A stretch of DNA of 64,000 bases from Patescibacteria group bacterium (GTDB lineage: Bacteria > Patescibacteriota > WWE3 > 0-14-0-20-40-13): contig JAHINB010000006.1 in NCBI GenBank assembly GCA_018896215.1, positions 2,941 to 66,940 of the forward strand, written 5' to 3'. Position numbers and translations under genes: made by a program. The notes under the pieces were generated by a model that did no database searches, was not told where the DNA came from, and saw only the letters and a list, made by a program, of their open reading frames with translations. Positions 1,431 through 49,100 of the stretch are shown piece after piece; the first letter of the stretch is position 1; every line of letters starts with the position of its first letter.

Positions 1431-1510
1431 ATATACCCATCTTATGCTAGTTTGCAACCCGTAGGGTTGGAAAAATAGCTTAGATGGGTATATACCCGTA
1501 GGGTGTACCA
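1431..1510 (-). repeat. About 78-bp intergenic repeat, copy 1 (copy 2 at 40045-40123). On the minus strand it contains a sigma70-like TTGCAA-N18-TATACT placed 6 nt before the ATG at 1421.
   Basis: tatacccatcttatgctagtttgcaacccgtagggttgg...cttagatgggtatatacccgtagggtg is about 85% identical to 40045-40123. Internal direct repeat acccgtagggt. Confidence 0.6.
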
Positions 1511-9986: not shown

Positions 9987-10012
9987 TTTTGTATCATAAA
10001 AAACAAACTCGT

Positions 10013-26818: not shown

Positions 26819-27954
26819 GTTCTAAAAAAACCTTTGATGGTTTTTACCACCTCACTAGCCTCCTCATCAGTTAAATATGGATGTAGTGGGATTGTTAAAA
26901 CCTCGCGACAGGCTTTCTCGGCGTTAGGAAAATCCCCTTCTTTGTAGCCTAAATACGAGTAACATTTTTGCAGGTGAAGCGGGATTGGGTAGTGAATAGC
27001 TGTTTTAATTTCTTTTTCCGCTAAAAACTTTGCGAGCTCGTCTCGTTTTGATGTTGCTAGAACAAAAAGATGGTATACCGGTTCAGAACCTTCTAATACT
27101 TTAGGAAATTTAAGATCGCCGACTCCTGTTAGATTTTCTAAATAATATTTGGCTATTTGTTGTCTTCGCTCTGTCCATTTTTTTAGGAACTTGAGTTTAA
27201 CTTGTAATATTGCTGCCTGCATTTCATCAAGCCGCGAGTTGACGCCTAAAATATCGTGTTGATATTTGGCTGATTGACCACCCTCGCGAAGCATGCGAAG
27301 CTTTTTATCAAGATTGGCATCGTTTGTAACTACAGCCCCACCATCACCATAGGCTCCAAGATTTTTTGTGGGATAAAAACTGTAGCAACCCAATTCTCCA
27401 AATGTTCCTACAGTTTTGCCCCGATATTTTGCCCCATGAGCTTGAGCACAGTCTTCCACTAGAACCGCCCCTGTTTCCTTACAGTAGTTGACGATGGGGT
27501 CCATATCGCAGGGATTTCCGTATAAATGTACTGGTACAACTGCTTTTATTTCGTGAGAAACAAACCTGTTTATTTTTGAACTTTGTCCGCCGATTGGCGG
27601 ATTGAACTTTAAATTTACATCTATATTGTAAGTCTCATCAATATCACTAAAAACTGGAACCAATCCCGCCATATTAATCGCCAATGAAGTGTAAGTTGCC
27701 GTAAACGGGGTGGTTAAAACTTGCGAGCCTGCAGGTAAATCCAATGATTTAAGGGCGAGCGCAATCGCGTCGGTTCCGTTGCCACAAGAAACAGCAAATT
27801 GTGACGAGGAGTATTTGGCAAACTCTTTTTCAAAAGATGTAACTTCTGATCCTAGCACAAACCAACCTCTGTCTAAAACCCTCTTTATCGAGGCGTTGAC
27901 TTCTGAACCAATCTCTAGCAATTCTTTTTTAAAATCAACAAACCAATTGATCAT
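26815..27954 (-). CDS. DegT/DnrJ/EryC1/StrS-family PLP-dependent sugar aminotransferase (ArnB/PglE-like).
   Basis: WFVLGSEVTSFEKEFAKY...CGNGTDAIALALKSL...HLYGNPCDMD...SFYPTKNLGAYGDGGAVVTND. Confidence 0.8.
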   Translation of the reverse strand: MINWFVDFKKELLEIGSEVNASIKRVLDRGWFVLGSEVTSFEKEFAKYSSSQFAVSCGNGTDAIALALKSLDLPAGSQVLTTPFTATYTSLAINMAGLVPVFSDIDETYNIDVNLKFNPPIGGQSSKINRFVSHEIKAVVPVHLYGNPCDMDPIVNYCKETGAVLVEDCAQAHGAKYRGKTVGTFGELGCYSFYPTKNLGAYGDGGAVVTNDANLDKKLRMLREGGQSAKYQHDILGVNSRLDEMQAAILQVKLKFLKKWTERRQQIAKYYLENLTGVGDLKFPKVLEGSEPVYHLFVLATSKRDELAKFLAEKEIKTAIHYPIPLHLQKCYSYLGYKEGDFPNAEKACREVLTIPLHPYLTDEEASEVVKTIKGFFRT

Positions 27955-35563: not shown

Positions 35564-37095
35564 ACATTAAACCTTGGCACATTACAATTTTGCTATTTGT
35601 GATCTTGATTCCAGTTGCTTTATCTATCAACTTTATGCAAAACGATGAGTGGGTTCACTATTTAACAGTCAGCAATTTTCTTAGCAAGAACTTTACGCTG
35701 TATCCAATCATCGGATCGACCTTTTACACGCAGGGCCTGATGGCAACAATTTTTTCCAGAATATTTACTGTTAAATCATTACCCGTTTTGACCTTAATAG
35801 TATCCGTTGGAAACTTTTATATATTTTCTAGAATTATCTCACTTTATACAGCAAAAAGATCGGTGATAATACTATTATCACTTCTATTTTTTCTTAATCC
35901 TCTACACATTTACTCTACATTTGGTTTTATGACCGAAAACTATTTGGTTTTCTTTTGCCTACTTTCCTTATATTTCTTCTTAAAATTTAACCATAAAGAA
36001 AGAAAAAAAGATTTTCACCTAGCATTACTTTTTACTGTCTTAGCCTTTTTTGTCAAGCAAAATGCGATTTTGTTGGCTCTAAGTTTTGGGATATATCTTA
36101 TGGTCATTAAGAAATGGAAATATGCTCTGTCTTGCGTTTTTACCATTCTAATTCTGTTGGTTTTTTACCAATTTGTTTTTCCACAGACACAAACAATGCA
36201 AGAGATAAAAGGGATCCATTTAGACAATTTCTCCCATGCAACTAGCACTTACTCCATTATCTTTACCTCCCTAATTTACTTAATGGCATTTGTCGGGCCA
36301 CTCGCTTTAATACTAATATTAAGAAGCGTTAAATCGTTAAAACAGGGGGTTGTTTTAATCACAATATCGGTTGTTATAACCGTACTGCTTACTCATTTAC
36401 TTAATCTTAGCTTTACCGCGCGAGGCGAATTCCCTTATTTTCAAAACATTGCTGAAAGATCGGGATTTTACGCTAACAGTATTAACGGGTTAAAATACTC
36501 CTTTGCTGGAAATTTTGTTTTTTACCAAATATTAGACATCTTTAGCAAATTATCGGTGGGGTTTCTCGTAACTTATCTAATTTTTAATCCCAAAGGACTG
36601 ATTAACCCCTTGCTAATATTTATACTTATTAATGCTTTATCCTTAAACCTTAACCAAAGTTACCGAACAATTTACGATAGATACCTTTTACTAAGTTTTC
36701 CCATGTTGATTTGTTTTTTTGCATATAGTATTAAGTTACCTTTAAAACAATTTGAGAAGATACTAATTGGAGGATTTGTACTGTTTTTGCTTTTCCTTAA
36801 TTACCAATTTGTTGCCGATTTCATTCTTAATAACCGTTATGTCTGGGCAAGATCTAAAGAGTTGACAGAGAGCGGTGTTGCCCCAAATAAAATTAACCCT
36901 TCCCATGCTTGGAGAATGCTTTACCCAAACCCCAAAGATCCAAAAACTGATGAGCATGATTACACATACATTTTTAGTTATAATAAAGACGATGAGGATT
37001 TGCAAAATATGGGATATAAAACCAGTGAAACAAAAAAAATTTCTTATCCACTGTCATTTTTTATTGACCCCTACATTTACCTTTACGAAAGATGA
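35554..37095 (+). CDS. Polytopic membrane protein, PMT_2/ArnT-like GT-C.
   Basis: NDEWVHYLTVSNF... and many TMs. Start overlaps the previous stop. Confidence 0.45.
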   Translation: MPVNIKPWHITILLFVILIPVALSINFMQNDEWVHYLTVSNFLSKNFTLYPIIGSTFYTQGLMATIFSRIFTVKSLPVLTLIVSVGNFYIFSRIISLYTAKRSVIILLSLLFFLNPLHIYSTFGFMTENYLVFFCLLSLYFFLKFNHKERKKDFHLALLFTVLAFFVKQNAILLALSFGIYLMVIKKWKYALSCVFTILILLVFYQFVFPQTQTMQEIKGIHLDNFSHATSTYSIIFTSLIYLMAFVGPLALILILRSVKSLKQGVVLITISVVITVLLTHLLNLSFTARGEFPYFQNIAERSGFYANSINGLKYSFAGNFVFYQILDIFSKLSVGFLVTYLIFNPKGLINPLLIFILINALSLNLNQSYRTIYDRYLLLSFPMLICFFAYSIKLPLKQFEKILIGGFVLFLLFLNYQFVADFILNNRYVWARSKELTESGVAPNKINPSHAWRMLYPNPKDPKTDEHDYTYIFSYNKDDEDLQNMGYKTSETKKISYPLSFFIDPYIYLYER

Positions 37096-38699
37096 AGAAT
37101 GTTAGAAATATAATCTTTTGGTCAGTGCTTACAATTTTAGCCCTAATTCCACGCATGTATTTTTTGGGAAGGGATTTTTATTCTATTGATTCCAATCGCT
37201 GGTTTAGAAGAGCCGTAAACTTTCAACATGCCTTCTTAAACGGAGATTTTGCAGGAACTTATCAAAAACAACATCCTGGGGTAACAACCATGTGGCTTGG
37301 AGGAACTGCCTACAGAGCCTTAACTGTAATCTATCCAAAACTAACAGGACATATTTTGGATGAAAATATTCCAAACGACTTTGTAACCATTAATTTTGTC
37401 GTTAAGCTTTCGCAAGTTTTAGCAACACTAACTCTTGTTTTTATAGCCTACAGATTAATAAAAAAGTGCTTTGACAGAAAAATTGCCTTGCTGTATTTAT
37501 TGTTAGTTTTGATAGATCCTTTTTTTCTTTTTTATACGCGACAATTTCATGTGGATGTACTTTTTTCTTCTTTCTCATTGATAGGAGTTCTCTATACATA
37601 TTTGTTTATAAATTCTAAATCCGAAATCCTAAATTCTAAATTTAGATACCTCCTTCTTTCGGCAGTGTTTTTTGGTTTGGCGTTTCTATCTAAATCTCCA
37701 GCAATTGTAATCGCCTTTGGATGTGGATTGGCTATTCTAATTAAAGGAATGTTCGTAGATAAAAAGGTAGGGCAAACTCTAAAATCCTGTGTGATATTTT
37801 CCTTGATACTTTTGGCAACCTACCTTATCGTCTTTCCTGCCAACTGGGTAAATCCAGTAGAGGTAACAAGGCAAATCATTCACGATTCCTTAGAGAACAC
37901 AGATAAAATAAGCTCGGTGTATATTATTAATCACGCCGATTCTAATTTTGGCGATAAATTCTATCTGTTAGTATTTCTCTTTAGATTTTCTCCATTTCTC
38001 GTCGCGGGAATCCTATTTTTAACCGTAAGATATTTCTCATCGTTTGTTATCAGAACAATACAAAAAGGGACGATCCCGACTATGTCGGGTTCGTCCCTAA
38101 TGAAGTTCCTACCTTTTTCCGGATATCTTATTTTACTTGCCTTGCTTTTTGAAGACAACAAACTCTACGAGCGCTACCTTCTCCCTTTTGTATTACCGTT
38201 AACATTGCTCGTTGCTTATAAAATTGCTCCCCGTATAAAAACCTCTCTTATTAAACCTGCTACCATTTTCTCCCTTGTAGTATTTTCTTTTTACCAAATC
38301 TTTGTTATTGCCCCAAACTTTATTGTCTATCCTACTCTTTTTGCTACACGAAACATACAAATGAAACTCTTTATAGAACTTGGAGGTTGCGAATCGATGC
38401 TTTACAATGTGGCATCGGATATTAATAACATTGAAGGGAATGATGACGACACCTACTCTATTGGCATTGGAGGAACTTACAAAGGTTGTTTAAAACCCTA
38501 CACAATCGGGGTTGTGGATGACATGGCAGAGTATGTAAGACGCAAAACGCCACTTAACGAATACCCAAAATATTTAGTTTTATTTAAAACTGACAATAGA
38601 TGGCTAGAAAGCCCCTACATTATGAGCGCTTACAATCTAATTAACACCTATTACATCTCCACTACACCAATTTACTACTTGTACCAAAAGAAAATCTAA
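37092..38699 (+). CDS. Polytopic membrane protein, GT-C-like; HPGVT-MW paralog family.
   Basis: WFRRAVNFQHAFLNGDFAGTYQKQHPGVTTMWLGG. Confidence 0.45.
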   Translation: MKNVRNIIFWSVLTILALIPRMYFLGRDFYSIDSNRWFRRAVNFQHAFLNGDFAGTYQKQHPGVTTMWLGGTAYRALTVIYPKLTGHILDENIPNDFVTINFVVKLSQVLATLTLVFIAYRLIKKCFDRKIALLYLLLVLIDPFFLFYTRQFHVDVLFSSFSLIGVLYTYLFINSKSEILNSKFRYLLLSAVFFGLAFLSKSPAIVIAFGCGLAILIKGMFVDKKVGQTLKSCVIFSLILLATYLIVFPANWVNPVEVTRQIIHDSLENTDKISSVYIINHADSNFGDKFYLLVFLFRFSPFLVAGILFLTVRYFSSFVIRTIQKGTIPTMSGSSLMKFLPFSGYLILLALLFEDNKLYERYLLPFVLPLTLLVAYKIAPRIKTSLIKPATIFSLVVFSFYQIFVIAPNFIVYPTLFATRNIQMKLFIELGGCESMLYNVASDINNIEGNDDDTYSIGIGGTYKGCLKPYTIGVVDDMAEYVRRKTPLNEYPKYLVLFKTDNRWLESPYIMSAYNLINTYYISTTPIYYLYQKKI

Positions 38700-38703
38700 A
38701 ACC

Positions 38704-38729
38704 TAAAAAGCAAAATGTCCCCAAAATCT
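38704..38729. repeat. 26-bp direct repeat, copy 1 (taaaaagcaaaatgtccccaaaatct); right boundary of the putative 1.4-kb insertion.
   Basis: Exact 26/26 match to 40142-40167. Overlaps the stop codon of the ATPase gene. Confidence 0.8.
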
Positions 38730-39981
38730 AGGTTAATAACCATTTCCAAACAGGCGTAAGACTAATTTCCTTGTCTCCAATTGTCTCCAACCCCTCTTGA
38801 TCGTAAGTTAATATCTGTAGATTATTACACGAAAGCTCCTTTCCAGCGGTAATTAAAGCTGAAATTTCCCTATCTTTTGTTTTTTTATCCGAAATATCGT
38901 AACAAACTTGAATTAGTTGTCTTTTGTTTAAATAAAAATCTACTTCCTTGTTATTATCAGTTTTATAAGAAAAAACTTCAAAATTTGGTCTAGCTCCACG
39001 CCTTAGTAGCTCCAAAAAAACCATGTTTTCTAAAAACTTTCCGTAATCGTAAGAAAATTGAAAAGCCTGGGCATCTGCCACACCAGTATCAATTAAATAT
39101 GCTTTTTTTGGTGATCTTATTTGCTCCTTAACTTTGTGAGAATACCTGTTTAATACACAAATTAAAAAAGCAGAAACAGAAAAATCAACATATTTTTTAG
39201 TAGTATGCAAACTAGAAATCCCCAAAGAAAATTGTAATTTTCTGTAGCTAAATTCCGAAGAAAAATTAGAAAATAGATAAAAAATCAAATCTCTAACTTC
39301 TTGTGGATTACGAACTTTGTACCTAGAAACGATATCGTTTAAGATAACAGAATCAATAAGAGAAGACAGATATACTTTGGGACTCAAATTCTGCATTACG
39401 AGTTCAGGAAAACCACCAGATTTTAGATAATCGTCAAAGTTATCTTTCAATAAAGGACTTAAACCCCCGCGGTCTATCTCTTTAGCCAAAAGAAATTCTT
39501 TAAAACTAAACGGCATAATTTTTATCTCGACAAATCTACCTGTTAAGTGAGTGGACAACTCTTGACTTAATAGGTTAGCGTTAGATCCCGTCAGAAATAT
39601 ATTGTATCCCCGTCTTTGTAGACCATTCACAAATAACTCCCAGTCGAGCAGGTTTTGTATTTCATCTAAAAATACAATCTTTGTATTTGGATAGACGCTA
39701 AACAAAGCTTCTTCTAACTTACTATGATTTTTACATCCCTTTATAATAGCGTTATCAAAATTGGCGTAGGCAAAAGATTTACCTTTAAGAAGCAACAAAC
39801 AAAAAGTCGATTTCCCCGATCTTCTTGGTCCGGTCACAACTTTAATTAAAGTTTTTTCGACAAGGTTTTTAGCATCGGCGGTTTTTTCTCTTTCTATAAT
39901 ACTTGTATTCAGAATAGAATTAATATCGTTTTTTTGCTTAAAAAGCTCGTTTTTGATCATTTTAATAGTCATAATGCACAA
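38728..39981 (-). CDS. AAA+ ATPase of the COG1373 / DUF4143 family (predicted ATPase often found in mobile or variable regions).
   Basis: Walker A VVTGPRRSGKSTF, Walker B IVFLDEIQ, about 417 aa; architecture typical of DUF4143 ATPases. Flanked by 26-bp direct repeats. Confidence 0.7.
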   Translation of the reverse strand: MCIMTIKMIKNELFKQKNDINSILNTSIIEREKTADAKNLVEKTLIKVVTGPRRSGKSTFCLLLLKGKSFAYANFDNAIIKGCKNHSKLEEALFSVYPNTKIVFLDEIQNLLDWELFVNGLQRRGYNIFLTGSNANLLSQELSTHLTGRFVEIKIMPFSFKEFLLAKEIDRGGLSPLLKDNFDDYLKSGGFPELVMQNLSPKVYLSSLIDSVILNDIVSRYKVRNPQEVRDLIFYLFSNFSSEFSYRKLQFSLGISSLHTTKKYVDFSVSAFLICVLNRYSHKVKEQIRSPKKAYLIDTGVADAQAFQFSYDYGKFLENMVFLELLRRGARPNFEVFSYKTDNNKEVDFYLNKRQLIQVCYDISDKKTKDREISALITAGKELSCNNLQILTYDQEGLETIGDKEISLTPVWKWLLT

Positions 39982-40044
39982 AAAACAGTTTTTTGTTCAA
40001 TAAATTACACTTTTTATGTTAAACCAACTAGTTTTGGTTGTCAA

Positions 40045-40123
40045 ATCTATACCCATCTTATGCTAGTTTTAAACCCGTAGGGTTGTTAAAGTGGCTTAGA
40101 TAGGTATATACTCGTAGCTCACC
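40045..40123 (-). repeat. About 78-bp intergenic repeat, copy 2. Promoter-like TTTAAA-N18-TAGATT on the minus strand, facing the ATPase gene.
   Basis: About 85% identical to 1431-1510; ends right after the stop (40125-40127) of the upstream gene. Confidence 0.6.
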
Positions 40124-40124
40124 T

Positions 40125-41825
40125 TTAGCGAGCGGAGAGTGTAAAAAGCAAAATGTCCCCAAAATCTTTCTCCAAAGTAAGGTTTTCCCTAAAAAACTTC
40201 TCGGGGTCGGCGGACTTAACAAAGTTTGGGTCAGATTTAATCTCCTTTTGTAGATCAGTTTTGCTAAAAACAATATAAGAAACTCCATAGCTTCTTGCAT
40301 GTTCCAAACCCTCTTGCGTTGGAAGCCATTTGGTAAATTCCATTGAATCAAAACCATATTCGTCATTTTCATAATTCCTTGGGTTTATTAAGCCTTTTTG
40401 ATGCCTTGTAATCCAAAAGATATCATCGGAATTTTGTCTTGGGTAAGTAACGATTATTTCGGTACCCGTGTATTGACCAATTCTTCCTGTTTCTCCAACA
40501 AAATTAAAACTCACTTTTTTTGTATCTTGAGCAAGGTAGGTATAAACCTCTGGTGTTTTAGAAACATCTGTTATCGTTATTGGTATGTAAAACTCAAATA
40601 GCGTAAAAACAATGTATCCTATGATTATTAATCTTACTAAAAGAAGTTTTGTTTTAAAGTTTTTATATCTAGTTACAATTTCGCTAAGAAAAACACCATT
40701 TACAATGAGAACGCACATTAATATCACTATCCCCAATCTTTGTGTAACCCTGAACATAGGAAACAATTTGTACAAAATAAATCCCAAAGTATAAATTTTA
40801 TGCCCCGCAAAATCAAAATAAGGGGGAAAAGTAAATAAAAACACCAGAAATCCCGTTAGTCCAAAAATTAATGCTGTTTTAATTTTGTCATTTGTCATTT
40901 GACATTTGGATCTCTTTACAAAATAAGCTATTGAAAAAATAAAAACTAAAATGTTCCCCCATCCCAAAAACATCTCGGGACTTTCATTATTAAAATAATC
41001 ATCCGCCAAAAAATACCCCCAATCGCTCTTCATCCAATTTAAAACCGATTTCGTAACCCCTCCAAATACTGGATTTTGAATTGGAGGCAAAACTAAATAC
41101 CACGGTCTGCCACTAAAATTCTGGAAATCTTCCAAAGTTCTACTCACACCCCCATCAAAAGATGGTGTAATCCTATATGAAGATTTAAAATAGGTAAGAA
41201 GTGTTGGGATACAAATTAATAGAACCACTCCAAAAATCACTAAATATTTAACGAGCTCTAATTTGAACCAACCAAAGGTGAACTTTTTAAAAGTTAGTTT
41301 GATAGTAATATTAGCTAACAAAAAACTGCCCGCAAAAAGCAACAAAAAATAACCTAAATAATTACTCACAAATATTGCAAAAGCGATAAACACCCCTGTG
41401 ATAATTTGTTGTTTTAAAGTCTGGGATTTGAGAAGTAAAATAATACCAGCTGGAATCATCCAAACTTGCATTAACGCAGGATGCACCCCTAAATGAAGAT
41501 AAGTGTAGGGAGAAAAAGTAAATAGGATTGACAAAAGAAGGCTTACAAATATATTAACCTTTAGATATTTAAAAAGCAAAAAGCAAAAAATCAGAAGCAA
41601 TAAAACGCTAATTATAGAAAACAGATTAGAGAATAATATTGGATTAAATATCTGTGACCCCTCATTATAAATTAAAGAAAATATTGGCTGATTACTTTCC
41701 AAAAGATGTGTGGGGTTGTTATTAAAAGGGGCACCAATTAGTTTTTTATTAGAGAGCGCAATAAACCCACCCACCTGGTCACCTAACCCACCAATGATAT
41801 TACTTTTTAGAAATTCTATGATCAT
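40125..41825 (-). CDS. Polytopic membrane protein of unknown family; its 3' end is remodelled by the insertion and it contains a heptanucleotide-repeat tract.
   Basis: 566 aa with more than 12 TMs. In-frame (TTTGWCA)3.5 at 40884-40912 encodes KCQMTNDKIK. The last 5 codons (TLSAR) lie inside the putative inserted segment. Confidence 0.35.
   Translation of the reverse strand: MIIEFLKSNIIGGLGDQVGGFIALSNKKLIGAPFNNNPTHLLESNQPIFSLIYNEGSQIFNPILFSNLFSIISVLLLLIFCFLLFKYLKVNIFVSLLLSILFTFSPYTYLHLGVHPALMQVWMIPAGIILLLKSQTLKQQIITGVFIAFAIFVSNYLGYFLLLFAGSFLLANITIKLTFKKFTFGWFKLELVKYLVIFGVVLLICIPTLLTYFKSSYRITPSFDGGVSRTLEDFQNFSGRPWYLVLPPIQNPVFGGVTKSVLNWMKSDWGYFLADDYFNNESPEMFLGWGNILVFIFSIAYFVKRSKCQMTNDKIKTALIFGLTGFLVFLFTFPPYFDFAGHKIYTLGFILYKLFPMFRVTQRLGIVILMCVLIVNGVFLSEIVTRYKNFKTKLLLVRLIIIGYIVFTLFEFYIPITITDVSKTPEVYTYLAQDTKKVSFNFVGETGRIGQYTGTEIIVTYPRQNSDDIFWITRHQKGLINPRNYENDEYGFDSMEFTKWLPTQEGLEHARSYGVSYIVFSKTDLQKEIKSDPNFVKSADPEKFFRENLTLEKDFGDILLFTLSAR
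40142..40167. repeat. 26-bp direct repeat, copy 2; left boundary of the putative insertion. Lies inside the 3' coding end (KDFGDILLF) of gene 40125-41825.
   Basis: Exact match to 38704-38729. Confidence 0.8.
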
Positions 41826-42762
41826 TAATTATTTTTTGAACTACAGCGTATGGTCTATTCTTTACCTCTTCTAATATTCTTCTTAGATATTCTGCGACAA
41901 TGCTTACACACACAAGCTGGACACTGCCAACAAATAAAACCAAAATAGCAACCGGAGAGAAAAGCCTTGCTCCAGTGGGGGCAAAAATTGCAACTCCCAA
42001 ATATAACAAAACCGTAATTAGTGTCACAAAAATTCCTACTATCGCAGAATAAAAAATCCAATCAAAAGGAGCGTAAGAAAAAGTAAATACCTCCTTGCGT
42101 ACCCAATATAATTTTCTTGAAACGCCACTTGTCGCAACACCAGTACCCCAGAACCTTTCTGGTCTAACATAAGAGACACCTATTTGTCTAAAACCCGCCC
42201 AAGCCCTAAGACCTCGTACAAATCTATCCTTTTCTGGAAGAGAGTTAATAATATCAACAACCTTACGATCCATTAGTGAAAACTCTCCCACATCAACCGG
42301 CATTTTGACATAGCTTATTCTACTAAAAAATACATGGAAATTATGTTGCACTAACTCCCAAAACTTTCCCATACTTTTTTCTCTTTTGCTTCTATGTCCA
42401 TACACCACATCGTAACCTTCTTGCCATTTTTTAACAAAGTCAACAATAAGCTCTGGGGGATCCTGCAAATCACCATCCATTATTACTACTGCATCACCAA
42501 GAGCTTGCTCCATCCCTGTAGAAAACGCGCTTTGATTGCCAAAATTCCGGGAATGCGTAATTACAGTCACTCTTTTATCTTTTCCGGCAAGGCTTTCTAG
42601 AATCTCCTGTGATTTGTCAGGACTGGCATCATTTACATAGATTATTTCGTAGTCAGAAGTTACTTCTTGCATTACTTTGACCACTCTTTTGTAGAGTTCT
42701 TCTATATTCCCCTCGTCTTTGTACGATACAGGAACTATGGATATTTTTTTCTTGGTAAGCAT
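41800..42762 (-). CDS. Family-2 glycosyltransferase, GtrB/ArnC-like polyprenol-phosphate sugar synthase with a C-terminal TM hairpin.
   Basis: ISIVPVSYKDEGNIEEL, IYVNDASPDKS, VIMDGDLQDPPE, and C-terminal TMs (IFYSAIVGIFVTLITVLLYLGVAIF...). Confidence 0.75.
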   Translation of the reverse strand: MLTKKKISIVPVSYKDEGNIEELYKRVVKVMQEVTSDYEIIYVNDASPDKSQEILESLAGKDKRVTVITHSRNFGNQSAFSTGMEQALGDAVVIMDGDLQDPPELIVDFVKKWQEGYDVVYGHRSKREKSMGKFWELVQHNFHVFFSRISYVKMPVDVGEFSLMDRKVVDIINSLPEKDRFVRGLRAWAGFRQIGVSYVRPERFWGTGVATSGVSRKLYWVRKEVFTFSYAPFDWIFYSAIVGIFVTLITVLLYLGVAIFAPTGARLFSPVAILVLFVGSVQLVCVSIVAEYLRRILEEVKNRPYAVVQKIINDHRISKK

Positions 42763-45700
42763 ACTTTGTTAAAAACTAAGTACTCCTTTAGCTTTATTAC
42801 CCCACGGATTATCACATAAGTTAGAGAAGAAAAGAAAGTAGTAAGACAAATCCCAATAAGTAGGTCTATTTTCCTTTGCACTACATACTCAACAGTCAGC
42901 GTATAACTTGATGCATCACCAACATCCTCGGGTTCTATTTTCCACAAATTAGCATAACCATTGATTTTAAAATGACGAGTTGATGAGATTTCATTTCTAC
43001 CTTTAAAATATAGCTTCCAATTCTTATCAAACGATTCGTTAAAAACCAGGTTGTAGGAGTCTCCTGACTCATCAACTTGAACCCGATATTTTGTAGGGTT
43101 GATTTTTGTATAAGTGATATTAGGGGGTCTGGTTTTCTGTTGCTTCTCGTCACTGACTTTCTTTAAAACCACCGAGGGGCTTCCTGCCTTCGCAAACGAG
43201 ATATTCATAAAATCAACTTTTGACTTTAACTTATCGTTTATTAGAAACTCTTGTTTTAGAAATAGTAGGGAATTAGTATCTTTTTTTAACTCCATTTCGT
43301 TGTAATATGCTCCAGCCCCACTAAACTTTTCGGAAAATATTTTATACCCGCCATCTTGTTGCACACCAACAACAGCAAACCCTAAGATATCTTTAGAAAA
43401 ATTATAATCCAAAGATATACTGTAGCTACCACTGAGCTCTTTTGAGTCTACAAACTTATAATAAATATCACCCCCCTCTTCCAAAAAAAGAGTTTTGGCG
43501 AGATCGGCATAGTTATTCTCACCAATTAAATTGGATTTGTGCCATGGTTCGGTTCCCGCCAATATATTTTTCCCCCTTGGAATATCAAGAAAAAAAGAAT
43601 ATTCTTTACTATCCTCAAGTGATGTATTTCCAATGTTATACCACCCCTTAACAATATCTAAGGATGGCGTTAATTTAAATCCGGTGAGTCCGATTTTATC
43701 TCCTTTAATAAAAACATTGTAACTTCCTTTTTCTGGTACAGTGACCAAATAATGTCCCCGAGACAAATAATCCCGCTTACCGACTCCGTAAATTTGATTT
43801 GGAGAAAAAGATTCTTTTACAGAGGAAAAGTCTATGTCTTCCAAAAACAATCCTGTTGAACTTAATGCTCCTGTAAAACTTAGAAGCTCTGAAATGTCTT
43901 CTATCTCTCCATTTACATAGTAAATATTACCTATGGGATAAAATTTTTGAGAATCTTCCGTTCCATCTACTTGGTAAATCTCGAGGGCGGGTCTATTCAG
44001 AAGTTCCTTGTATAGCTCATTTTTTAGATTAACATTAGGATCGTCATTGACAATTGTCTCCAGATATTCCGGCGTAAATTTTCCAAATTCTGCCACTTTT
44101 ATAACATTTAACTTTTTTATCCAATCATCAAGTTGGCTCGGCGATAAAGTTAGTTCTCCAGAATATCTCCAATCTAAATCGTTTTCGCGAAGAATATACT
44201 TAACGCCCAAAAAGTTAAAATAATTTGAGTTTACATTACTATCACTATAAAAATTTCCAACTACTTTTTCGGAAGTGGATCCTGTATTTATTGGTCTTCC
44301 AAGAATTGTATTACCATTGCTTACAAAATTGACAGCGACATCATCAGCACTGGAAAAACCCTTAGGCCAATTCCAAGCCGACCCATAATAAGTTTTTGGA
44401 ACAGTAAGAATTCGTTCGTCTTTTAAATTCTTTTTTTGGAATTTGTAAAAGTCATCCCAATATTGAGGTACAGATACTCTAAAAGTTCGCATACTTCCAT
44501 TCCATTTATCCCAAACATGCTCACCTAAAATTGCTGGCTTACCAAAAATAAATACCAAAAATAAAAATAAAATGAAGATATTTGTTCTAAAATAGGGCTT
44601 AATCCAGTCTCTAATCCCCAACAACAATCTGTAAAAAAGAAGGGAGAATGCCAAAACATATAACTCACCAAACTTGGTAAAAGGCTCTCTAAAAACCTTA
44701 AAAGCAGAGATGTGATCGTATAAAAACCTGTACAAAATACCAAAGGGGGGTCTTGAACCACCAACCAAAAATAAACTAATCAAAAGAAACACCAACGCAA
44801 ACAATGCTGGTCTATCTTTTTTTAGCGCCAATACAACCCCATACCCCATCGTAAGAGCGACAACTAGGTAAGTAGCAATAACTACAAGAGGAGAATCGTA
44901 ATACTGGCTAAAGGGATAATAATTATAGAGATAGTGCCCCTCATACCAACCCCACTGACCAATAAATCTAAGATTTTGAAACAAGCTACCTTGATTTGTA
45001 AAGTCAGACCAATTACCATTAGAAAGTATCCCAACGCTGGAAAAATAGTATTGAACTTGCGCTACAATCCACCATAAATTACACAAGATCAAAACCATTG
45101 AATATAAAAACAGATTTAAGAGCTTAATTTTGCTCAGTCTATGAAGATTAAATATTAAATAGATGAGTTGGGGGATAAAAATCGTCATGGATAAAGCAGG
45201 ATTAGAATTTAATGAGGAAAAAATAACACTAGATAAAGCAATTATCGAAAGAGTCAAATAGTCTACTCTTTCACTTTTCAAAAGACGAACAAAGAGATAC
45301 AGGGAAAGGGGAAGATATGCCCCATCTAAAAGATAAAGATAAGAGAATGGATTTAGAGCTCCAAAAGGATTAAAAACAAGCAAAAGACACGCTGGAATAC
45401 AAGCAAAAAGCAAAAATCTTTTAAAAAGTGCTTTTGAAAGCAAAAAAAACCCAAAATATTTTAAAAAATACAGAGTAAAAATTAACAAACGCTCCGAAAT
45501 GTCTTGGGATAAAAAACACGTAAGCTTTGAATATAAGGGAATTCCAAACAAATTTGCTACATCGTAACCTGGTCCACCAAACGGAAGAGACTCCTTCCAA
45601 GAATAATTATTTGTGGTTTCTTTACAAAGTTGTAGGTACTGATAATTATCTCCACCCGCAAGTAGATGTCCATCACCAAATAACAATTGGATGTGAATAA

Positions 45701-45779
45701 TCTCTATAACCGCAATTAAAAAAAACAAAAGGACTCCTGGGGTTTTTATTGACTTAGTCAACGATAATTTTACTCCCAC
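42735..45779 (-). CDS. Giant membrane protein (1014 aa): N-terminal polytopic GT-C-like domain, large extracytoplasmic domain, C-terminal TM anchor. Tandem paralog of 46128-49799.
   Basis: Blocks shared with its paralog: LLAGGDNYQYLQL, FIGQWGWYEGHYLYNYYPF, FKVFREPFTKFGELYVL, LGEHVWDKWNGS, DDVAVNFV, ENDLDWRYSGELTLSPSQ, NGYANLWKIEPED. Confidence 0.5.
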   Translation of the reverse strand: MGVKLSLTKSIKTPGVLLFFLIAVIEIIHIQLLFGDGHLLAGGDNYQYLQLCKETTNNYSWKESLPFGGPGYDVANLFGIPLYSKLTCFLSQDISERLLIFTLYFLKYFGFFLLSKALFKRFLLFACIPACLLLVFNPFGALNPFSYLYLLDGAYLPLSLYLFVRLLKSERVDYLTLSIIALSSVIFSSLNSNPALSMTIFIPQLIYLIFNLHRLSKIKLLNLFLYSMVLILCNLWWIVAQVQYYFSSVGILSNGNWSDFTNQGSLFQNLRFIGQWGWYEGHYLYNYYPFSQYYDSPLVVIATYLVVALTMGYGVVLALKKDRPALFALVFLLISLFLVGGSRPPFGILYRFLYDHISAFKVFREPFTKFGELYVLAFSLLFYRLLLGIRDWIKPYFRTNIFILFLFLVFIFGKPAILGEHVWDKWNGSMRTFRVSVPQYWDDFYKFQKKNLKDERILTVPKTYYGSAWNWPKGFSSADDVAVNFVSNGNTILGRPINTGSTSEKVVGNFYSDSNVNSNYFNFLGVKYILRENDLDWRYSGELTLSPSQLDDWIKKLNVIKVAEFGKFTPEYLETIVNDDPNVNLKNELYKELLNRPALEIYQVDGTEDSQKFYPIGNIYYVNGEIEDISELLSFTGALSSTGLFLEDIDFSSVKESFSPNQIYGVGKRDYLSRGHYLVTVPEKGSYNVFIKGDKIGLTGFKLTPSLDIVKGWYNIGNTSLEDSKEYSFFLDIPRGKNILAGTEPWHKSNLIGENNYADLAKTLFLEEGGDIYYKFVDSKELSGSYSISLDYNFSKDILGFAVVGVQQDGGYKIFSEKFSGAGAYYNEMELKKDTNSLLFLKQEFLINDKLKSKVDFMNISFAKAGSPSVVLKKVSDEKQQKTRPPNITYTKINPTKYRVQVDESGDSYNLVFNESFDKNWKLYFKGRNEISSTRHFKINGYANLWKIEPEDVGDASSYTLTVEYVVQRKIDLLIGICLTTFFSSLTYVIIRGVIKLKEYLVFNKVCLPRKKYP

Positions 45780-46131
45780 TTTTTTTTAGTTTCTTAAAAA
45801 ATGCAACTACCAGATAAAAATATGCCCAAATAGAAATTTTCTCGGCGACAGTTTCAAGACTAAGAAACTTAAGCGGCAGCACCAAAGACAGTAATACTAT
45901 TGAAAGCATCAGGTACCAATCATGTTTTCGTGTATACACCAATTCGCACAGTAACCACAAAACCATTAAGGGAAAAAATACAAACGAATAAACAAACTCT
46001 AGCAATACCATATCCATCAAAACACCCAGCATGAACAGGAAAAGCAACATAACCTTGTTTTTTACCAGGAATTTCTTAAGGAGCTTCAGCAATCTTGCAA
46101 CTTTTAATTTTAATTTAAGAATTATCTTCAT
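45754..46131 (-). CDS. Small 4-TM membrane protein (125 aa), possibly a GtrA-like flippase subunit.
   Basis: Basic N-terminus KLKLKVARLLKLLKK followed by four hydrophobic helices. Its start and stop overlap the two giant genes, suggesting translational coupling. Confidence 0.35.
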   Translation of the reverse strand: MKIILKLKLKVARLLKLLKKFLVKNKVMLLFLFMLGVLMDMVLLEFVYSFVFFPLMVLWLLCELVYTRKHDWYLMLSIVLLSLVLPLKFLSLETVAEKISIWAYFYLVVAFFKKLKKSGSKIIVD

Positions 46132-49100
46132 GACAAACTATGAACTCTAATAGCAGTGATAAATTTAAACATTCGTGCCGTTATAAAATATATCGTGGCT
46201 ACCAAAAATGTGCTCAAACTCAAAATAACACAAATCCTAAAAATCCTTTGTGGGTAAAACTCGATGACTAATGTATAACTTTCTTTATTATCTGCATCCT
46301 CGGGACTTACATGCCACAGATTTGCATATCCATTAACAATATCATGACTAGAATTAGAAATAAGTTTTGTCCCATCCAGATACATTCTCCAACCACGATT
46401 GTAACTCTCACTAAAAATTAAATCGTAAGGATCGGTTACTCCTGAAACACTAACCTTGTACTTAGTCGAATTTATCTTAGAAAACACTATGTTAGGAACA
46501 GTTGGGGTCGTATCTAGCGACTTATTCCCCCCTTTCTTAACTACAATGATGGGTTCTAACACCTCCTCTACACTAATATTCTTTACCCTTACATGGGAAG
46601 CCTTCCGAGCATACGGGTAGGCATAAATGTAAAATAGCGCCGACTTAGCATCGTTACTTGCCCTAAAAATCTTTTTGTAACTACGCCAACAATTGGACTC
46701 TCCAGATCTATCCAAACAGCTCTGATCTAATTCAGCCTTGACTAAAACTTTAGTCAAAAGCAACTGACTATTAGAGATTGGGGTTTGAACTGGGGAATTT
46801 GATTCAATAATAGCTATGCCCAAGCCTCCCGAATCAGTCGAATACTCAAAAGATACCGAATATTTCTTACCACTCTCAAAATTTTCCAATGGTTTGTAAT
46901 GTATCATGTCGTCCCACAAAACTAGGCTAGATTCTATTTCCCTAGGACGAGCGATATCTGAACCAAGCACATAATAACCCGGAAAAATGTTTTGCATAAC
47001 AAAATCTGCACTTGAACTATCTAAAGTAGCGAAGTTCGGAACCAACCACCCGCCAGAACCAATTAAATTCTTACCTTTAGGGAGCGATAAATTTACAATA
47101 TAATTTTTGCCTTTTTGAAATGTGGTAATACCATCGTAATACCAACCTTTTATCTCATCCTTTTGGTTTTTGACCTCCGTGTATTCCAAATCAGCAATTT
47201 TGACTTTTGGCAAAATTAGTTTTGCCAAAACACTATCACCAACATAAACACTGTACCTCCCATCTTCCGGAACTTTAAAAGTGTAACAGTAATCGCCACA
47301 ATCGGGGGTCGAGACCTCGTAAATCCAAGCAACAAAGTTTTTATATAGAACTCTAGGATCTTTGCTGTTACCAAAAGTATATTCAGAAAGAGGAATGGTT
47401 GCGTTGGATCTCTCAACATACATTAACACCTTACCCACCATTCCCCAAAAATCCCCCTCACTTTCATCGTCATTCATTATTTTTTCCTTTGGAACATTTT
47501 TAAGCACCTCCATTGATTGATCTACCAGATTCGCATAATCCCTAACAAGTTGTTCCTCTAATTGTGGGGGTACTCTATACTTAGCTATCTCCGCAGCTCT
47601 TTTTGCAGCAAGCCAAAGTAACAAGTCCGCCTTATCAAGGGGGTTTTTGGGGATAGCTTTTTCTATATCTTCCTTTACCTGCACAAATTTGTACTTAAAA
47701 TCTGTGGGATTCGTGTTAACCACAACCGGCCAAGCCCAACCCTCTTTCCATGTTAAATTTTCCAAGGAAAACCGCGAAAACTTTCTAGTACCAAAAATTA
47801 CTCTATCTGCGGATTCTCTCAAAGGTGATTCATCAACCTTCTCTGTATCTTTTATAAAAACCCCAATACCCTTTGCATAATTAGATGTACTCAAAACATA
47901 GGGTAACTCTTGAATAGTTGACCACGAATATACGAGATCTTTCGGAATGTAAAACTTCGGCAATTTATTATCTTCTGGAACCTTATACAGAACTAAAGCG
48001 GGTCTCCCTGTAAGTTCGGCATAGAGCTCTTCTCTTAAAGAAGTATTTGCTTCTCCGTTAGGTATTTTTAAAAGATACTTTGGGTCAAATTCGCCAAACT
48101 CTTGGATCTTTTCAACACCTAACTTATTAATTGCTAAATCATTTTGACTGGGTGGCAGAGTCAACTCCCCCGAATACCTCCAGTCTAAATCATTCTCTTG
48201 CAATATATAATCAACAGATAACAATGCGAGATAATTCTTAGGCAAGTCCGCAACCCGAAATATATTATCTATAACTTCACCCGCTTCGGAACCTGAAGCA
48301 ATGGGGTTTCTCAAAACACTGTTTCCCCCATCCACAAAGTTTACCGCTATGTCATCGGCTGATGAAAATCCATAAATCCAATTCCAAGCTCCACCATAAT
48401 AGGATTTTGGGGTAGTTAGTATTCGAGCATCTTTTAAATTATCGTGAGTAAATTTTTCAAATTCTTTCCAGTATGTTGGTATATTTATCCTTGAAGTTCT
48501 AACGCTCCCATTCCACTTAGACCACACATGCTCGCCCAAAAGAACTGGTTTTGCGTTCATAAGAACTAACAACAAAACGAACATAAATAATCCAAATTTC
48601 CACTTTCCCTGAAAACGCTTTTCAATATTTGTGAGTGCTACATAAAATAAAACCGAGAAGGATAGCACATACAATTCACCGAATTTTGTAAAAGGTTCTC
48701 TAAAAATCTTGAATCCGGGAAAGTAATTAAACAACAAGGTGTAAACGAAACCAAAAGGCGAACGAGACCCCCCTACCAAAAACAGGGAGAGCAAAAATAG
48801 AGCAATAAAAAAGATTTGGGGTTTTCTTGAACTCACTTTTTGTCCAAAAGACAAAGCGATCGTAAAAATAACCAATGCATAGCTAAAAAAGAAAATGGTT
48901 GGCTTGTCATACCAATCATGAAATGGGTAATAATCGTATAGAAAGTGTTTGCCGTACCAACCCCACTGCCCAATGAATCTAAAATTCTGATACAAGTGCC
49001 CCACCGATGAAGCAGAAAACCACCCGCTCTTAAAAACCCTATTTGCATTTTCCATATAATAATAAAGCATAGGTGTTACCCACCACAAATTTACCAAAAT

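What the first reader, a model, noticed from the sequence alone, without database searches (positions are those of the whole stretch)
38704..40167. 1.4-kb insertion flanked by exact 26-bp direct repeats, carrying a COG1373/DUF4143 AAA ATPase and a promoter-like 78-bp element, inserted into the 3' end of a membrane-protein gene
Seen:
- taaaaagcaaaatgtccccaaaatct occurs identically at 38704-38729 and 40142-40167 and nowhere else that I noticed.
- Copy 2 lies inside the codons KDFGDILLF of gene 40125-41825, which then reads TLSAR-stop from the inserted DNA.
- Copy 1 overlaps the stop of the ATPase gene, 5 bp from the stop of the convergent gene 37092-38699.
- Conceptual excision of one repeat plus the intervening 1412 bp would leave the membrane-protein frame ending ...ILLFRF-stop at a stop overlapping the convergent neighbour. 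That is a tidy ancestral arrangement.

Inference: this is a site-specifically integrated small element or cassette, with the 26-mer acting as an att-like core or a long target duplication. Its only cargo is a DUF4143 ATPase, a family recurrently found in variable or defence regions. No integrase lies within the element, so mobilisation would be in trans.
Basis: partly seen in the sequence, partly recalled or inferred. Interest (0 to 1): 0.6.

Follow-up and report, generated by a model that had tools for sequence, protein, structure and literature searches.

The report
Defence-gene cassette inserted with target duplication
A single candidate anti-phage gene with its own promoter was spliced into the very end of a sugar-coat gene in an uncultured ultra-small bacterium, duplicating 26 bases of the target, and relatives of this gene across bacteria and archaea carry similar flanking duplications far more often than chance, which suggests the gene family moves as a one-gene cassette without any recombinase of its own.

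Summary
The exact 26-mer occurs only at 38704-38729 and 40142-40167. It brackets 1412 bp that hold one gene, an AAA_14+DUF4143 ATPase (PADLOC candidate PDC-S01). The insertion is real. Homologues of the interrupted DUF6311 protein end in LF[KRN][FL]-stop, which is what copy 1 plus the next 8 bases encode (ILLF-RF-stop). The nearest related lineage has the predicted empty site, with 7 bp between the convergent genes.

The 70-nt palindrome is not a promoter. It is absent from two sister lineages with the same insertion, so it arrived later. The likely promoter is TTGACA-17-TAACAT at 40044-40016.

No recombinase domain was found in any ORF of at least 150 aa in the 64-kb window.

Across 76 homologous loci, 12 ATPase genes have exact flanking direct repeats of at least 19 nt. 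Shifted control positions gave 5 of 616. Two-copy pairs extend to 26-132 nt, are unrelated in sequence and have no inverted ends.

This matches "insertion with long target duplication", described so far for restriction-modification genes. A fixed att core does not fit the family-wide data.

One point is unexplained. The repeat copies are identical within genomes but differ between lineages, so they were homogenised after the lineages split.

The parts
38704..38729 (-). Direct repeat copy 1. This is the displaced copy of the last codons (K)DFGDILLF of the DUF6311 gene, now lying between the ATPase stop and the convergent PMT_2 stop.
   Evidence: Exact 26/26 match to 40142-40167; 0 expected by chance.
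38696..38703 (-). Displaced native end of the DUF6311 gene. With the last base of copy 1 it reads AGG TTT TAG (R-F-stop). Its TAG overlaps the TAA of the convergent gene.
   Evidence: Sequence. The homologues compared end in LF[KRN][FL]-stop, except P0003, which carries an 8-residue tail. The empty-site lineage L006 ends CTTTTTAAGTTCTAG, 7 bp from the convergent gene.
38728..39972 (-). ATPase gene, 414 aa. Domains are AAA_14 and DUF4143 (PD-(D/E)XK superfamily). It belongs to the PADLOC candidate defence family PDC-S01.
   Evidence: Pfam AAA_14 5.9e-31 and DUF4143 8.5e-19. PADLOC PDLC04787 1.2e-107 over the full length. The exact protein is called on 5 other contigs. AF2 pLDDT 89.5, with Orc1/Cdc6-, SSO1545- and STAND-like matches.
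39975..39999 (-). Palindromic operator-like site just upstream of the start codon: TGAACAAAAAAC-T-GTTTTTTGTGCA.
   Evidence: Read from the sequence. Many of the 75 homologous loci show equivalent half-site pairs upstream, with co-varying central bases, by visual inspection. k-mer counts support this: TGCATAA in 18 loci against 0 control regions, TTGTGCA 13 against 2.
40016..40044 (-). Sigma-70-like promoter of the ATPase, TTGACA-17-TAACAT. This is the left end of the original cassette.
   Evidence: Best promoter-like site in the region, 10/12. Nucleotide homology to the sister cassettes L016 and L013 starts exactly at 40044. TTGACA is conserved at the same place in both.
40045..40141 (-). Secondary insertion of about 97 bp. 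It consists of a 24-nt filler, which supplies the new TLSAR-stop tail of DUF6311, and a roughly 73-nt imperfect palindrome (core 40048-40117).
   Evidence: Absent from L016, where the junction reads ...GCTTTTTA-AAC-TTGACAACC, and from L013. A second copy lies at 1432-1501, 89% identical. It forms a stable hairpin on either strand. There is no Rfam match. It is present in all five contigs of this species, with variants that match the other copy.
40142..40167 (-). Direct repeat copy 2. This is the in-gene copy, still encoding (K)DFGDILLF of DUF6311.
40125..41825 (-). Target gene: a DUF6311 membrane protein of a glycosylation cluster. Its last two codons were replaced by TLSAR.
   Evidence: PF19830 annotation on the identical protein. 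C-terminal alignment.
37092..38699 (+). Convergent PMT_2 (GT-C) gene that abutted the DUF6311 gene before the insertion.
   Evidence: Pfam PMT_2 1.3e-14. Same convergent pair with a 7-bp gap in L006-L008 and L098.
1432..1501 (-). Second copy of the palindromic element. It lies between a GT4 gene and a sugar-transferase gene and belongs to the repeat family, not to the cassette.

Best explanation
The segment 38730-40044 is a self-contained one-gene cassette: a promoter, a palindromic operator-like site and a PDC-S01 ATPase gene (Orc/Cdc6-like AAA+ domain followed by DUF4143, a PD-(D/E)XK-superfamily domain). It was inserted into the last codons of a DUF6311 glycosylation gene in a Patescibacteria (WWE3-like) genome. 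The insertion duplicated at least 26 bp of the target, so one intact, slightly re-tailed copy of the gene survives and the original end (RF-stop) was displaced 1.4 kb away.

Shown: the insertion, the duplication, the empty site in a related lineage, and the absence of any recombinase domain.

Inferred: the mode is recombinase-independent 'insertion with long target duplication'. In this model a staggered break is filled in after foreign DNA is captured. It is the integrase-free mobile form described for restriction-modification genes.

Also inferred: the two repeat copies later recombine with each other, through gene conversion, pop-out or re-integration. That would explain why they stay identical within a genome and how a precise empty site can be regenerated.

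A 97-bp segment carrying a REP/MITE-like palindrome was inserted later, at the junction between the in-gene repeat and the cassette's -35 box.
For: 1. The repeat is exact and unique in the window.
2. Homologues P0002-P0009 end in LF[KRN][FL]-stop (P0003 adds an 8-residue tail), as does the frame read through copy 1.
3. An empty site with conserved synteny, GT2 -> DUF6311 -> <- PMT_2 with a 7-bp gap, exists in the nearest lineage (L006-L008, L098).
4. The same cassette sits at the same site in two further lineages. In L013 it is flanked by a 37-nt repeat (36/37) of the same codons.
5. Family-wide, exact flanking repeats of at least 19 nt occur in 12 of 76 loci against 5 of 616 shifted controls (Fisher p = 5e-9). 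By blastn, 14 of 72 loci against 6 of 399 controls (p = 2e-8).
6. Three of the control hits flank neighbouring cassettes of the same type: two other DUF4143 ATPases and a two-gene pair that looks AbiE-like from sequence recall only.
7. In the ten simple two-copy GTDB cases plus the window and L013, the repeats are 26-132 nt at 91-100% identity and unrelated in sequence between loci. Several overlap the first or last codons of a neighbouring gene, and there are no terminal inverted repeats. The other two positive loci, L042 and L065, sit in multi-copy repeats and are set aside.
8. Those twelve units are 1373-1947 nt long, which leaves no room for a second gene.
9. No integrase, transposase or recombinase domain was found in any of the 47 ORFs of at least 150 aa in the window, and there is no tRNA gene.
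10. The published precedent is Furuta et al. 2010 (PMC2853133): R-M genes inserted with long, variable target duplications and no mobility gene, some overlapping 3' ends of genes.
Against: - No empty site was found in a close relative. The nearest is 56-69% identical at protein level, and the exact empty-junction pattern is absent from JGI metagenomes.
- The exact repeat is 26 bp, below the 30-bp cut-off Furuta et al. used. It may have been about 31 bp before the palindrome arrived.
- The identity of the two copies cannot be a passive relic. Synonymous sites between lineages are saturated, yet the copies are 26/26 and 36/37 and differ between lineages at the same three synonymous positions. 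A pure one-off duplication does not predict this. It points to ongoing recombination at the repeats or to site-specific re-insertion.
- The biochemical mechanism of long target duplication is unknown even for R-M genes.
- In this ATPase subfamily the canonical E-x-K of the nuclease motif is replaced by Q-V-C, with Q355 invariant in 32 sequences and the K-to-C change read from the window protein. The cassette probably does not cut its own target.
Confidence: 0.6

Rival explanations
1. Site-specific integration. The 26-mer is the identity block of attL/attR, and a tyrosine, serine or Xer-type recombinase encoded elsewhere in the genome integrates and excises the cassette at the 3' end of DUF6311 genes.
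For: - Three sister cassettes (100, 83 and 76% aa identity; the next relative is 52%) all sit at the same site, although the DUF6311 gene bodies are only 31-41% identical.
- The left junction is the same in L016 and L013: TTTTTA + 3 nt + TTGACAA.
- The repeat copies are identical within genomes and co-vary between lineages despite saturated synonymous divergence. That is expected if attP and attB must match at each integration.
Against: - No recombinase domain is present in the cassette or in any ORF of at least 150 aa of the 64-kb window.
- The 26-mer has no dif-like or other dyad symmetry (read from the sequence).
- Across the family the flanking repeats have no common core and range from 26 to 132 nt.
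- The right junction differs between lineages. The stop codon overlaps the repeat in the window and L016. In L013 there is a 10-nt gap and the repeat extends 11 nt further.
Confidence: 0.2
2. Campbell-type homologous integration. A cassette circle, released from a related genome by recombination between its flanking repeats, carries one copy of the conserved DUF6311 3' end. It integrates into another genome by a single homologous crossover in those 26-37 bp. The first duplication arose elsewhere.
For: - It explains the same site in related lineages without a recombinase.
- It explains the variable repeat length (26 versus 37 nt).
- It explains identity of the copies, through heteroduplex repair at each integration.
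- It explains why the last 35-95 nt of DUF6311 are far more similar between lineages than the rest of the gene.
- It is consistent with the 'amplify and release through the repeats' life cycle proposed for R-M units (PMC2853133).
Against: - 26 bp is, from my own recollection, near the lower limit for RecA-dependent recombination.
- It does not explain how the first duplication arose. It therefore complements the main explanation rather than replacing it.
- No circular junction was observed, and this could not be searched for.
Confidence: 0.15
3. Not a duplication made by insertion. Copy 1 would be the last remnant of a deleted second DUF6311 paralogue, or a chance or motif-driven repeat, or an assembly chimera.
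For: - Tandem DUF6311 paralogues exist in a related contig (L120).
- EKDFG..LLF is a conserved C-terminal motif of the family.
Against: - The match is exact at nucleotide level, including synonymous sites that differ between lineages.
- Paralogues are under 50% identical.
- The remnant is followed by exactly RF-stop overlapping the neighbour's stop, as in the empty-site lineage.
- Five independent assemblies agree.
- No third copy occurs even with 3 mismatches allowed.
Confidence: 0.03

Closest known systems
Insertion with long target duplication of restriction-modification genes (Furuta, Abe and Kobayashi 2010, PMC2853133; the earlier Nobusato et al. 2000 work is cited there)
   Same: A small defence-type unit with no mobility gene is flanked by direct repeats that correspond to a single-copy sequence at the empty site. 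Repeat length varies from case to case, and repeats often overlap the 3' end of a neighbouring gene. One intact copy of the target survives.
   Different: - The cargo is one ATPase gene, not an R-M pair. There is no methyltransferase, and the nuclease motif is degenerate (Q-V-C for E-x-K).
- The repeat here is 26 bp exact, below their 30-bp threshold.
- The host is a CPR bacterium.
- The same mode recurs across bacteria and archaea for this family, whereas no archaeal R-M case survived their screen.
- The repeat copies show concerted evolution.
PDC-S01, a PADLOC 'phage defence candidate' (single gene, AAA_14 + DUF4143)
   Same: Full-length HMM match at 1.2e-107 and the same two Pfam domains. 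It shows the wide inter-domain distribution reported for the family (PMC12988326).
   Different: Defence activity has not been validated for the family. The papers found here describe no mobile form, flanking duplication or conserved operator for it.
Integrase-borne genomic islands and prophages that insert into the 3' ends of genes and carry a replacement gene end (attL/attR)
   Same: Insertion at the 3' end of a gene, flanking direct repeats, the gene kept functional with a new tail, and the same site used in related genomes.
   Different: There is no integrase in the element or the window, the element is only 1.3 kb, and there is no shared att core across the family.
Integron gene cassettes
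   Same: A one-gene unit of about 1.3 kb with no recombinase of its own. In the window an imperfect palindrome lies next to it.
   Different: - The palindrome is a later addition, absent from sister lineages, and lies upstream of the ORF.
- The cassette has its own promoter.
- Direct repeats of target sequence are not an integron feature.
- No IntI-like domain is present in the window.
Xer-dependent elements (IMEX, and the pdif modules of Acinetobacter plasmids; recalled from general knowledge)
   Same: Small cargo units flanked by sites of about 28 bp and moved by host recombinases in trans. 174 Acinetobacter plasmids carry a homologue of this ATPase.
   Different: The 26-mer has no XerC/XerD-like dyad arms. 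It is coding sequence of a conserved protein C-terminus and is present once at the empty site. The plasmid contexts were not examined.
REP/MITE-like palindromic repeats (for the 70-nt element only)
   Same: A short imperfect palindrome, multicopy, at gene boundaries, present or absent between lineages.
   Different: Only two copies were seen, with no clear target-site duplication and no Rfam family.

Membership tests
PDC-S01 / AAA_14-DUF4143 ATPase | Full-length match to the PADLOC PDC-S01 profile | tested here: met
   PDLC04787, E = 1.2e-107, residues 20-413 of 414.
PDC-S01 / AAA_14-DUF4143 ATPase | Pfam AAA_14 and DUF4143 above their gathering scores | tested here: met
   107.6 bits against a cut-off of 27, and 68.3 bits against 28.1.
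PDC-S01 / AAA_14-DUF4143 ATPase | Canonical PD-(D/E)XK catalytic motif (D ... E-x-K) | tested here: not met
   E315 and D345 are present, but E-x-K is replaced by Q355-V-C357. Q355 is invariant in 32 subfamily members. The second ATPase of L013 has E-I-K.
PDC-S01 / AAA_14-DUF4143 ATPase | Protects against phage | not testable with these tools
   Reported as unvalidated for the family (PMC12988326).
Insertion with long target duplication (criteria of Furuta et al. 2010) | The flanking direct repeats correspond to a single-copy sequence in a genome that lacks the insert | tested here: met
   L006-L008 and L098 have one homologous copy at the DUF6311 end, 7 bp from the convergent gene. The empty-site lineage is distant (56-69% aa).
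Insertion with long target duplication (criteria of Furuta et al. 2010) | No mobility-related gene in or next to the insert | tested here: met
   The insert holds one ORF. All 47 ORFs of at least 150 aa in the window lack recombinase or transposase domains.
Insertion with long target duplication (criteria of Furuta et al. 2010) | Duplication longer than 30 bp | tested here: not met
   26 bp exact in the window. The sister lineage has 37 nt. Family members have 26-132 nt.
Insertion with long target duplication (criteria of Furuta et al. 2010) | The repeat is not a multicopy genomic repeat | tested here: inconclusive
   Unique within the 64-kb window. The rest of the genome was not available.
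Integrase-mediated att integration | A recombinase gene in the element or adjacent to it | tested here: not met
   A recombinase elsewhere in the genome cannot be excluded.
Integrase-mediated att integration | A conserved att core shared by related elements | tested here: not met
   Flanking repeats of 12 family members are unrelated in sequence and length. Only the three sister cassettes share a site.
Integron cassette | An attC recombination site at the 3' end of the ORF as part of the cassette | tested here: not met
   The only palindrome lies upstream of the ORF and is absent from sister cassettes.
Transposon / IS / MITE | Terminal inverted repeats and a short target duplication of fixed length | tested here: not met
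   Terminal 25-nt complementarity is 1-9 of 25 in 12 units. Repeats are 26-132 nt.
Xer/dif-dependent element | A 28-bp site with XerC/XerD dyad arms around a 6-bp spacer | tested here: not met
   The 26-mer has no dyad symmetry (read from the sequence). It is coding sequence conserved as protein.

The most novel reading that the evidence does not exclude
PDC-S01 genes may not be defence genes, or not only defence genes. [quoted passage not shown] They would prefer gene ends and the flanks of resident copies, and would so build co-oriented stacks. That would make the fourth most common 'defence candidate' of prokaryotes a new class of recombinase-less selfish element. It would also give a molecular handle on the long-unexplained 'long target duplication' mode.
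Probability: 0.12. Interest if true: 0.9.

Novelty: new variant of a known kind. Interest (0 to 1): 0.62.

Why it matters
PDC-S01 is reported as the fourth most common defence candidate in prokaryotes and as repeatedly exchanged between bacteria and archaea (PMC12988326). How such single genes move without recombinases is not known.

This study documents one clean insertion, with its empty site and its displaced gene end. It also shows that 13-19% of homologous loci in about 20 phyla carry comparable flanking duplications, against about 1% of control positions. That extends the integrase-free 'insertion with long target duplication', described so far for restriction-modification genes, to a different and very abundant gene family, and to archaea and CPR bacteria.

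It suggests a simple route by which defence islands grow. Each insertion regenerates its target, and divergent copies stack in the same orientation.

The concerted evolution of the repeat copies and the conserved co-varying operator are concrete, testable handles on the mechanism.

Tried and rejected
- **Empty site in the same species.** An exact 38-nt junction pattern found nothing in JGI metagenomes. All five other contigs of the species carry the insertion, or the covered part of it.
- **Second empty site.** A gapped junction pattern for the distant family member L116 found nothing in viral contigs.
- **More lineages of the locus.** The PMT_2-based metagenome scan returned only the lineages already known. 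The context of P0003 was uninformative because a co-oriented paralogue follows it.
- **Dating the insertion by dS.** Synonymous sites are saturated for both cassette and flanks in the A-C and A-D comparisons. Vertical inheritance and horizontal spread could not be separated that way.
- **RNA families.** Rfam gave nothing relevant for the palindrome or the cassette.
- **Protein annotation.** NCBIfam and PDB sequence searches gave no hit for the ATPase.
- **Structure.** The fold search showed only AAA+ (Orc/Cdc6, STAND) relatives and no recombinase-like fold.
- **Viruses as vehicles.** Only 17 hits in 2.9 million viral contigs.
- **Considered and rejected:**
  - Integron attC: the palindrome is secondary and lies upstream of the ORF.
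  - Xer/dif site: no dyad symmetry.
  - IS or MITE-type transposition of the cassette: no terminal inverted repeats, and repeat length is variable.
  - Assembly chimera: independent assemblies agree and GC content is similar.
  - Remnant of a deleted paralogue: the copies are identical at the nucleotide level.
- **Excluded from the repeat count.** L042 and L065 sit in multicopy repeats and are not counted as simple target duplications.


Full report
**1. The observation**

The 26-mer TAAAAAGCAAAATGTCCCCAAAATCT is present at 38704-38729 and 40142-40167. It occurs nowhere else in the window, even with three mismatches allowed, and none is expected by chance.

The 1412 bp between the copies hold one ORF on the minus strand, 38728-39972 from its ATG, encoding 414 aa. 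It carries Pfam AAA_14 and DUF4143.

Copy 2 lies in the codons KDFGDILLF of the minus-strand gene 40125-41825 (DUF6311, PF19830). That gene then reads TLSAR-stop.

Copy 1 overlaps the ATPase stop codon by 2 nt and begins 4 nt after the stop of the convergent PMT_2 gene 37092-38699. Read on the minus strand, copy 1 continues AGG TTT TAG (R-F-stop). That TAG overlaps the TAA of the convergent gene.

Five further contigs from independent samples are 99.6-100% identical. They come from GCA_043827225.1, GCA_018817985.1, ERZ27247128, JGI 3300014656 and SRR35107410. The four that span both positions carry both repeats; the SRR35107410 contig ends inside the ATPase gene. The structure is therefore real and fixed in this population.

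**2. It is an insertion, and the predicted ancestral state exists**

Homologues of the DUF6311 protein, at 42-56% identity, end ...[IV]LF-[KRN]-[FL]-stop. One, P0003, carries an extra 8-residue tail after the motif. The window protein ends ...ILLF-TLSAR, but the frame read through copy 1 gives ...ILLF-RF-stop, which is the family ending.

The organism is a Patescibacteria / WWE3-like bacterium. Its nearest relative at this locus is WWE3 CG08 (L006-L008 and L098). There the synteny GT2 -> DUF6311 -> <- PMT_2 is conserved, with 7 bp between the convergent genes, one copy of the homologous sequence, and no ATPase.

All 47 ORFs of at least 150 aa in the window are glycan or envelope biosynthesis genes or lack any Pfam match. 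None has a recombinase, integrase or transposase domain, and there is no tRNA gene. The ATPase is the only gene of a clearly different kind in a 64-kb glycosylation cluster.

**3. Sister lineages define the original cassette and show that the palindrome is secondary**

Only two other protein clusters are close to this ATPase, at 83% and 76% identity. The next relative is 52% identical. Both sit at the same place.

- In L016 and L017 (83%), homology to the window runs from 40232 to 40138, then jumps directly to 40044 and continues to 38704. The junction reads ...GCTTTTTA-AAC-TTGACAACC....
- In L012-L014 (76%), homology likewise begins at 40044.

Window 40045-40141 is therefore a later insertion. 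It consists of a 24-nt filler and a roughly 73-nt imperfect palindrome, and the filler supplies the present TLSAR-stop tail.

A second copy of the palindrome lies at 1432-1501, between two glycosyltransferase genes. It folds into a long hairpin on either strand and matches no Rfam family. It varies between strains at positions where some strains match the other copy.

The best promoter-like site is next to it: TTGACA-17-TAACAT at 40044-40016. TTGACA is conserved at the same place in both sister lineages.

The original cassette is thus 38730-40044, running from the -35 box to the stop codon, about 1.3 kb.

**4. What the gene is**

The protein matches the PADLOC candidate PDC-S01 over its full length, with E = 1e-107.

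DUF4143 is listed in the PD-(D/E)XK superfamily (PMC3424549). PDC-S01 is described as an ATPase fused to a PD-(D/E)XK domain. It is reported as the fourth most common defence candidate in prokaryotes, unvalidated, with multiple transfers between the domains (PMC12988326).

An AlphaFold model (pLDDT 89.5) resembles SSO1545-type archaeal AAA+ ATPases, Orc1/Cdc6 and STAND NTPases. No recombinase-like fold appears.

In this subfamily the E-x-K of the nuclease motif is replaced by Q355-V-C357. Q355 is invariant in 32 sequences. A divergent paralogue in L013 keeps E-I-K.

The family is spread over about 20 bacterial and archaeal phyla at 40-50% identity. It is rare on viral contigs, with 17 hits, and is present on 306 plasmids.

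**5. Flanking duplications are a property of the family**

I fetched 80 homologous loci from species-representative genomes. For each I compared the 400 nt upstream of the ATPase ORF with the 400 nt downstream.

| Test | ATPase loci | Shifted control positions | Fisher p |
|---|---|---|---|
| Exact direct repeat of at least 19 nt | 12 of 76 | 5 of 616 | 5e-9 |
| blastn hit of at least 40 bits | 14 of 72 | 6 of 399 | 2e-8 |

The largest repeat against a reversed-sequence null was 12 nt.

Inspection of the control hits showed that three of them flank neighbouring units:
- a second DUF4143 ATPase in L066, with a 32-nt repeat;
- another in L088, with a 26-nt repeat;
- a two-gene pair in L044 that looks AbiE-like, judged from sequence recall and not profile-tested.

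Two loci, L042 and L065, sit in multicopy repeats and are set aside. A more distant homologue on viral contigs, L116 and L119, has an 80-nt duplication of the 5' end of the downstream gene.

After extension, the ten two-copy GTDB cases plus the window and L013 have repeats of 26-132 nt at 91-100% identity. Units are 1373-1947 nt long. In 9 of these 12 the downstream repeat begins between -14 and +52 nt from the stop codon. There are no terminal inverted repeats, and the repeat sequences are unrelated between loci. Several repeats overlap the first or last codons of a neighbouring gene, as in the window.

This matches 'insertion with long target duplication', which Furuta, Abe and Kobayashi described for R-M genes. 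Their cases have long, variable duplications, no mobility gene, some overlap of gene 3' ends, and an unknown mechanism (PMC2853133). I found no paper that describes this mode for DUF4143 / PDC-S01.

**6. What does not fit a passive scar**

Label the lineages A (the window), B (L016) and C (L013). Synonymous sites are saturated between A and C for both the cassette and the flanking genes; third-position identity is 0.43-0.49. A neutral remnant of an ancestral duplication should therefore have decayed.

It has not. The two copies are 26/26 identical in A and 36/37 in C. They differ between A and C at the same three synonymous positions in both copies: GGG GAC ATT against GGA GAA GTT. In B the downstream copy is largely unrecognisable.

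The empty-site lineage D (the L006 lineage) is closer to A than C is, judged by PMT_2: 69% against 56% aa identity.

The DUF6311 gene bodies of A, B and C are only 31-41% identical, but their last 35-95 nt are 80-86% identical. The gene is also a mosaic within species A (P0010).

Together these facts require recombination at or between the repeats after the lineages split. The candidates are gene conversion, pop-out and re-integration, or independent insertions at the same site. I cannot decide between these options with the data available.

**7. Verdict**

The insertion, the duplication and the ancestral arrangement are shown. The mechanism is inferred. My estimates are:
- recombinase-independent capture with a long target duplication, followed by recombination between the repeats: about 0.6;
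- a trans-acting site-specific recombinase: about 0.2;
- homologous Campbell-type spread of a circle that carries the target end: about 0.15, and partly complementary to the first;
- a deleted-paralogue remnant, a chance repeat or an artefact: below 0.05.

The window feature alone is a modest finding. The family-wide pattern, the conserved operator and the concerted evolution of the repeats make it a new variant of a known but mechanistically unexplained mobile form.

Noticed in passing
window 1432-1501 and 40048-40117: A roughly 70-nt imperfect palindrome is present twice in the window. The copy at 40048-40117 is a secondary insertion exactly at the junction between the in-gene repeat and the cassette's -35 box. 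Strains L004 and L005 carry variants that match the other copy, which suggests conversion between copies. There is no Rfam family for it.
   Followed up: partly
window 39975-39999 (minus strand); L018-L097, 75 nt upstream of each ATPase ORF: Many PDC-S01 homologues appear to have a palindromic pair of half-sites upstream, of the form TG-NN-CAAAAA ... TTTTTG-NN-CA. The central bases co-vary between the two half-sites (GAACA/TGTTC, GCACA/TGTGC, GGTCA/TGACC, GGACA/TGTCC). In archaea the pair brackets a TATA-like box. This is a visual reading supported by k-mer enrichment. It suggests autoregulation by the protein's own DNA-binding domain, and that the non-coding region travels with the gene.
   Followed up: partly
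L027, L028, L030, L045, L066, L071, L077, L080, L082, L087, L088, L089, L092, L096; also L013 and L116: 14 of 80 loci hold two or three divergent DUF4143 ATPase genes within 4 kb, always in the same orientation. In L013, L027, L071, L066 and L088 the repeat-flanked unit sits directly upstream of another copy. This looks like iterative stacking at one site.
   Followed up: partly
window 40125-41825; P0010; L016 2-574; L013 258-1829: The DUF6311 gene is a recombination mosaic. In one strain of the same species (P0010) the N-terminal 250 aa are about 49% identical while the rest is identical. This coincides with contig breaks at the same point in L003 and L004. Between lineages only the last 35-95 nt are well conserved.
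   Followed up: partly
window ATPase residues 355-357; alignment A2: The nuclease-motif E-x-K is replaced by Q-V-C. Q355 is invariant across the 32 aligned subfamily members. E315 and D345 are kept, so the nuclease domain is possibly inactive.
   Followed up: partly
L044 2105-3765: A two-gene unit next to the ATPase is flanked by a 31-nt direct repeat (93.5% identity). From sequence recall it looks like an AbiEii-type nucleotidyltransferase with an AbiEi-type partner; no profile search was run on it. Other defence-type cassettes may share the same mobile form.
   Followed up: no
L065 3364-8450: In a Saprospiraceae contig the ATPase lies between copies of a 340-415-nt repeat that is present four times at spacings of 1-2 kb. 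The arrangement resembles a cassette array. The repeat appears to encode a small multicopy protein beginning MKTHHDLDVWKK.
   Followed up: no
window 9985-10019, 14787-14821, 22671-22705, 27542-27576: A 35-nt motif containing the palindrome GAAACAAAC-TTGTTTA recurs four times at gene boundaries of the glycosylation cluster. It may be a shared regulatory site.
   Followed up: no
window 42735-45779 and 46128-49799: Two adjacent GT-C_AftD-like genes are paralogues, with 76-nt and 51-nt repeats at a spacing of 4011 nt. The whole 64-kb window is one very large glycan/envelope gene cluster with many PMT_2 (GT-C) genes.
   Followed up: no
plasmid collection: 306 plasmids carry a homologue, and 174 of them are from Acinetobacter. 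From memory, small accessory modules on Acinetobacter plasmids are often bounded by pdif (Xer) sites. Their contexts were not examined.
   Followed up: no
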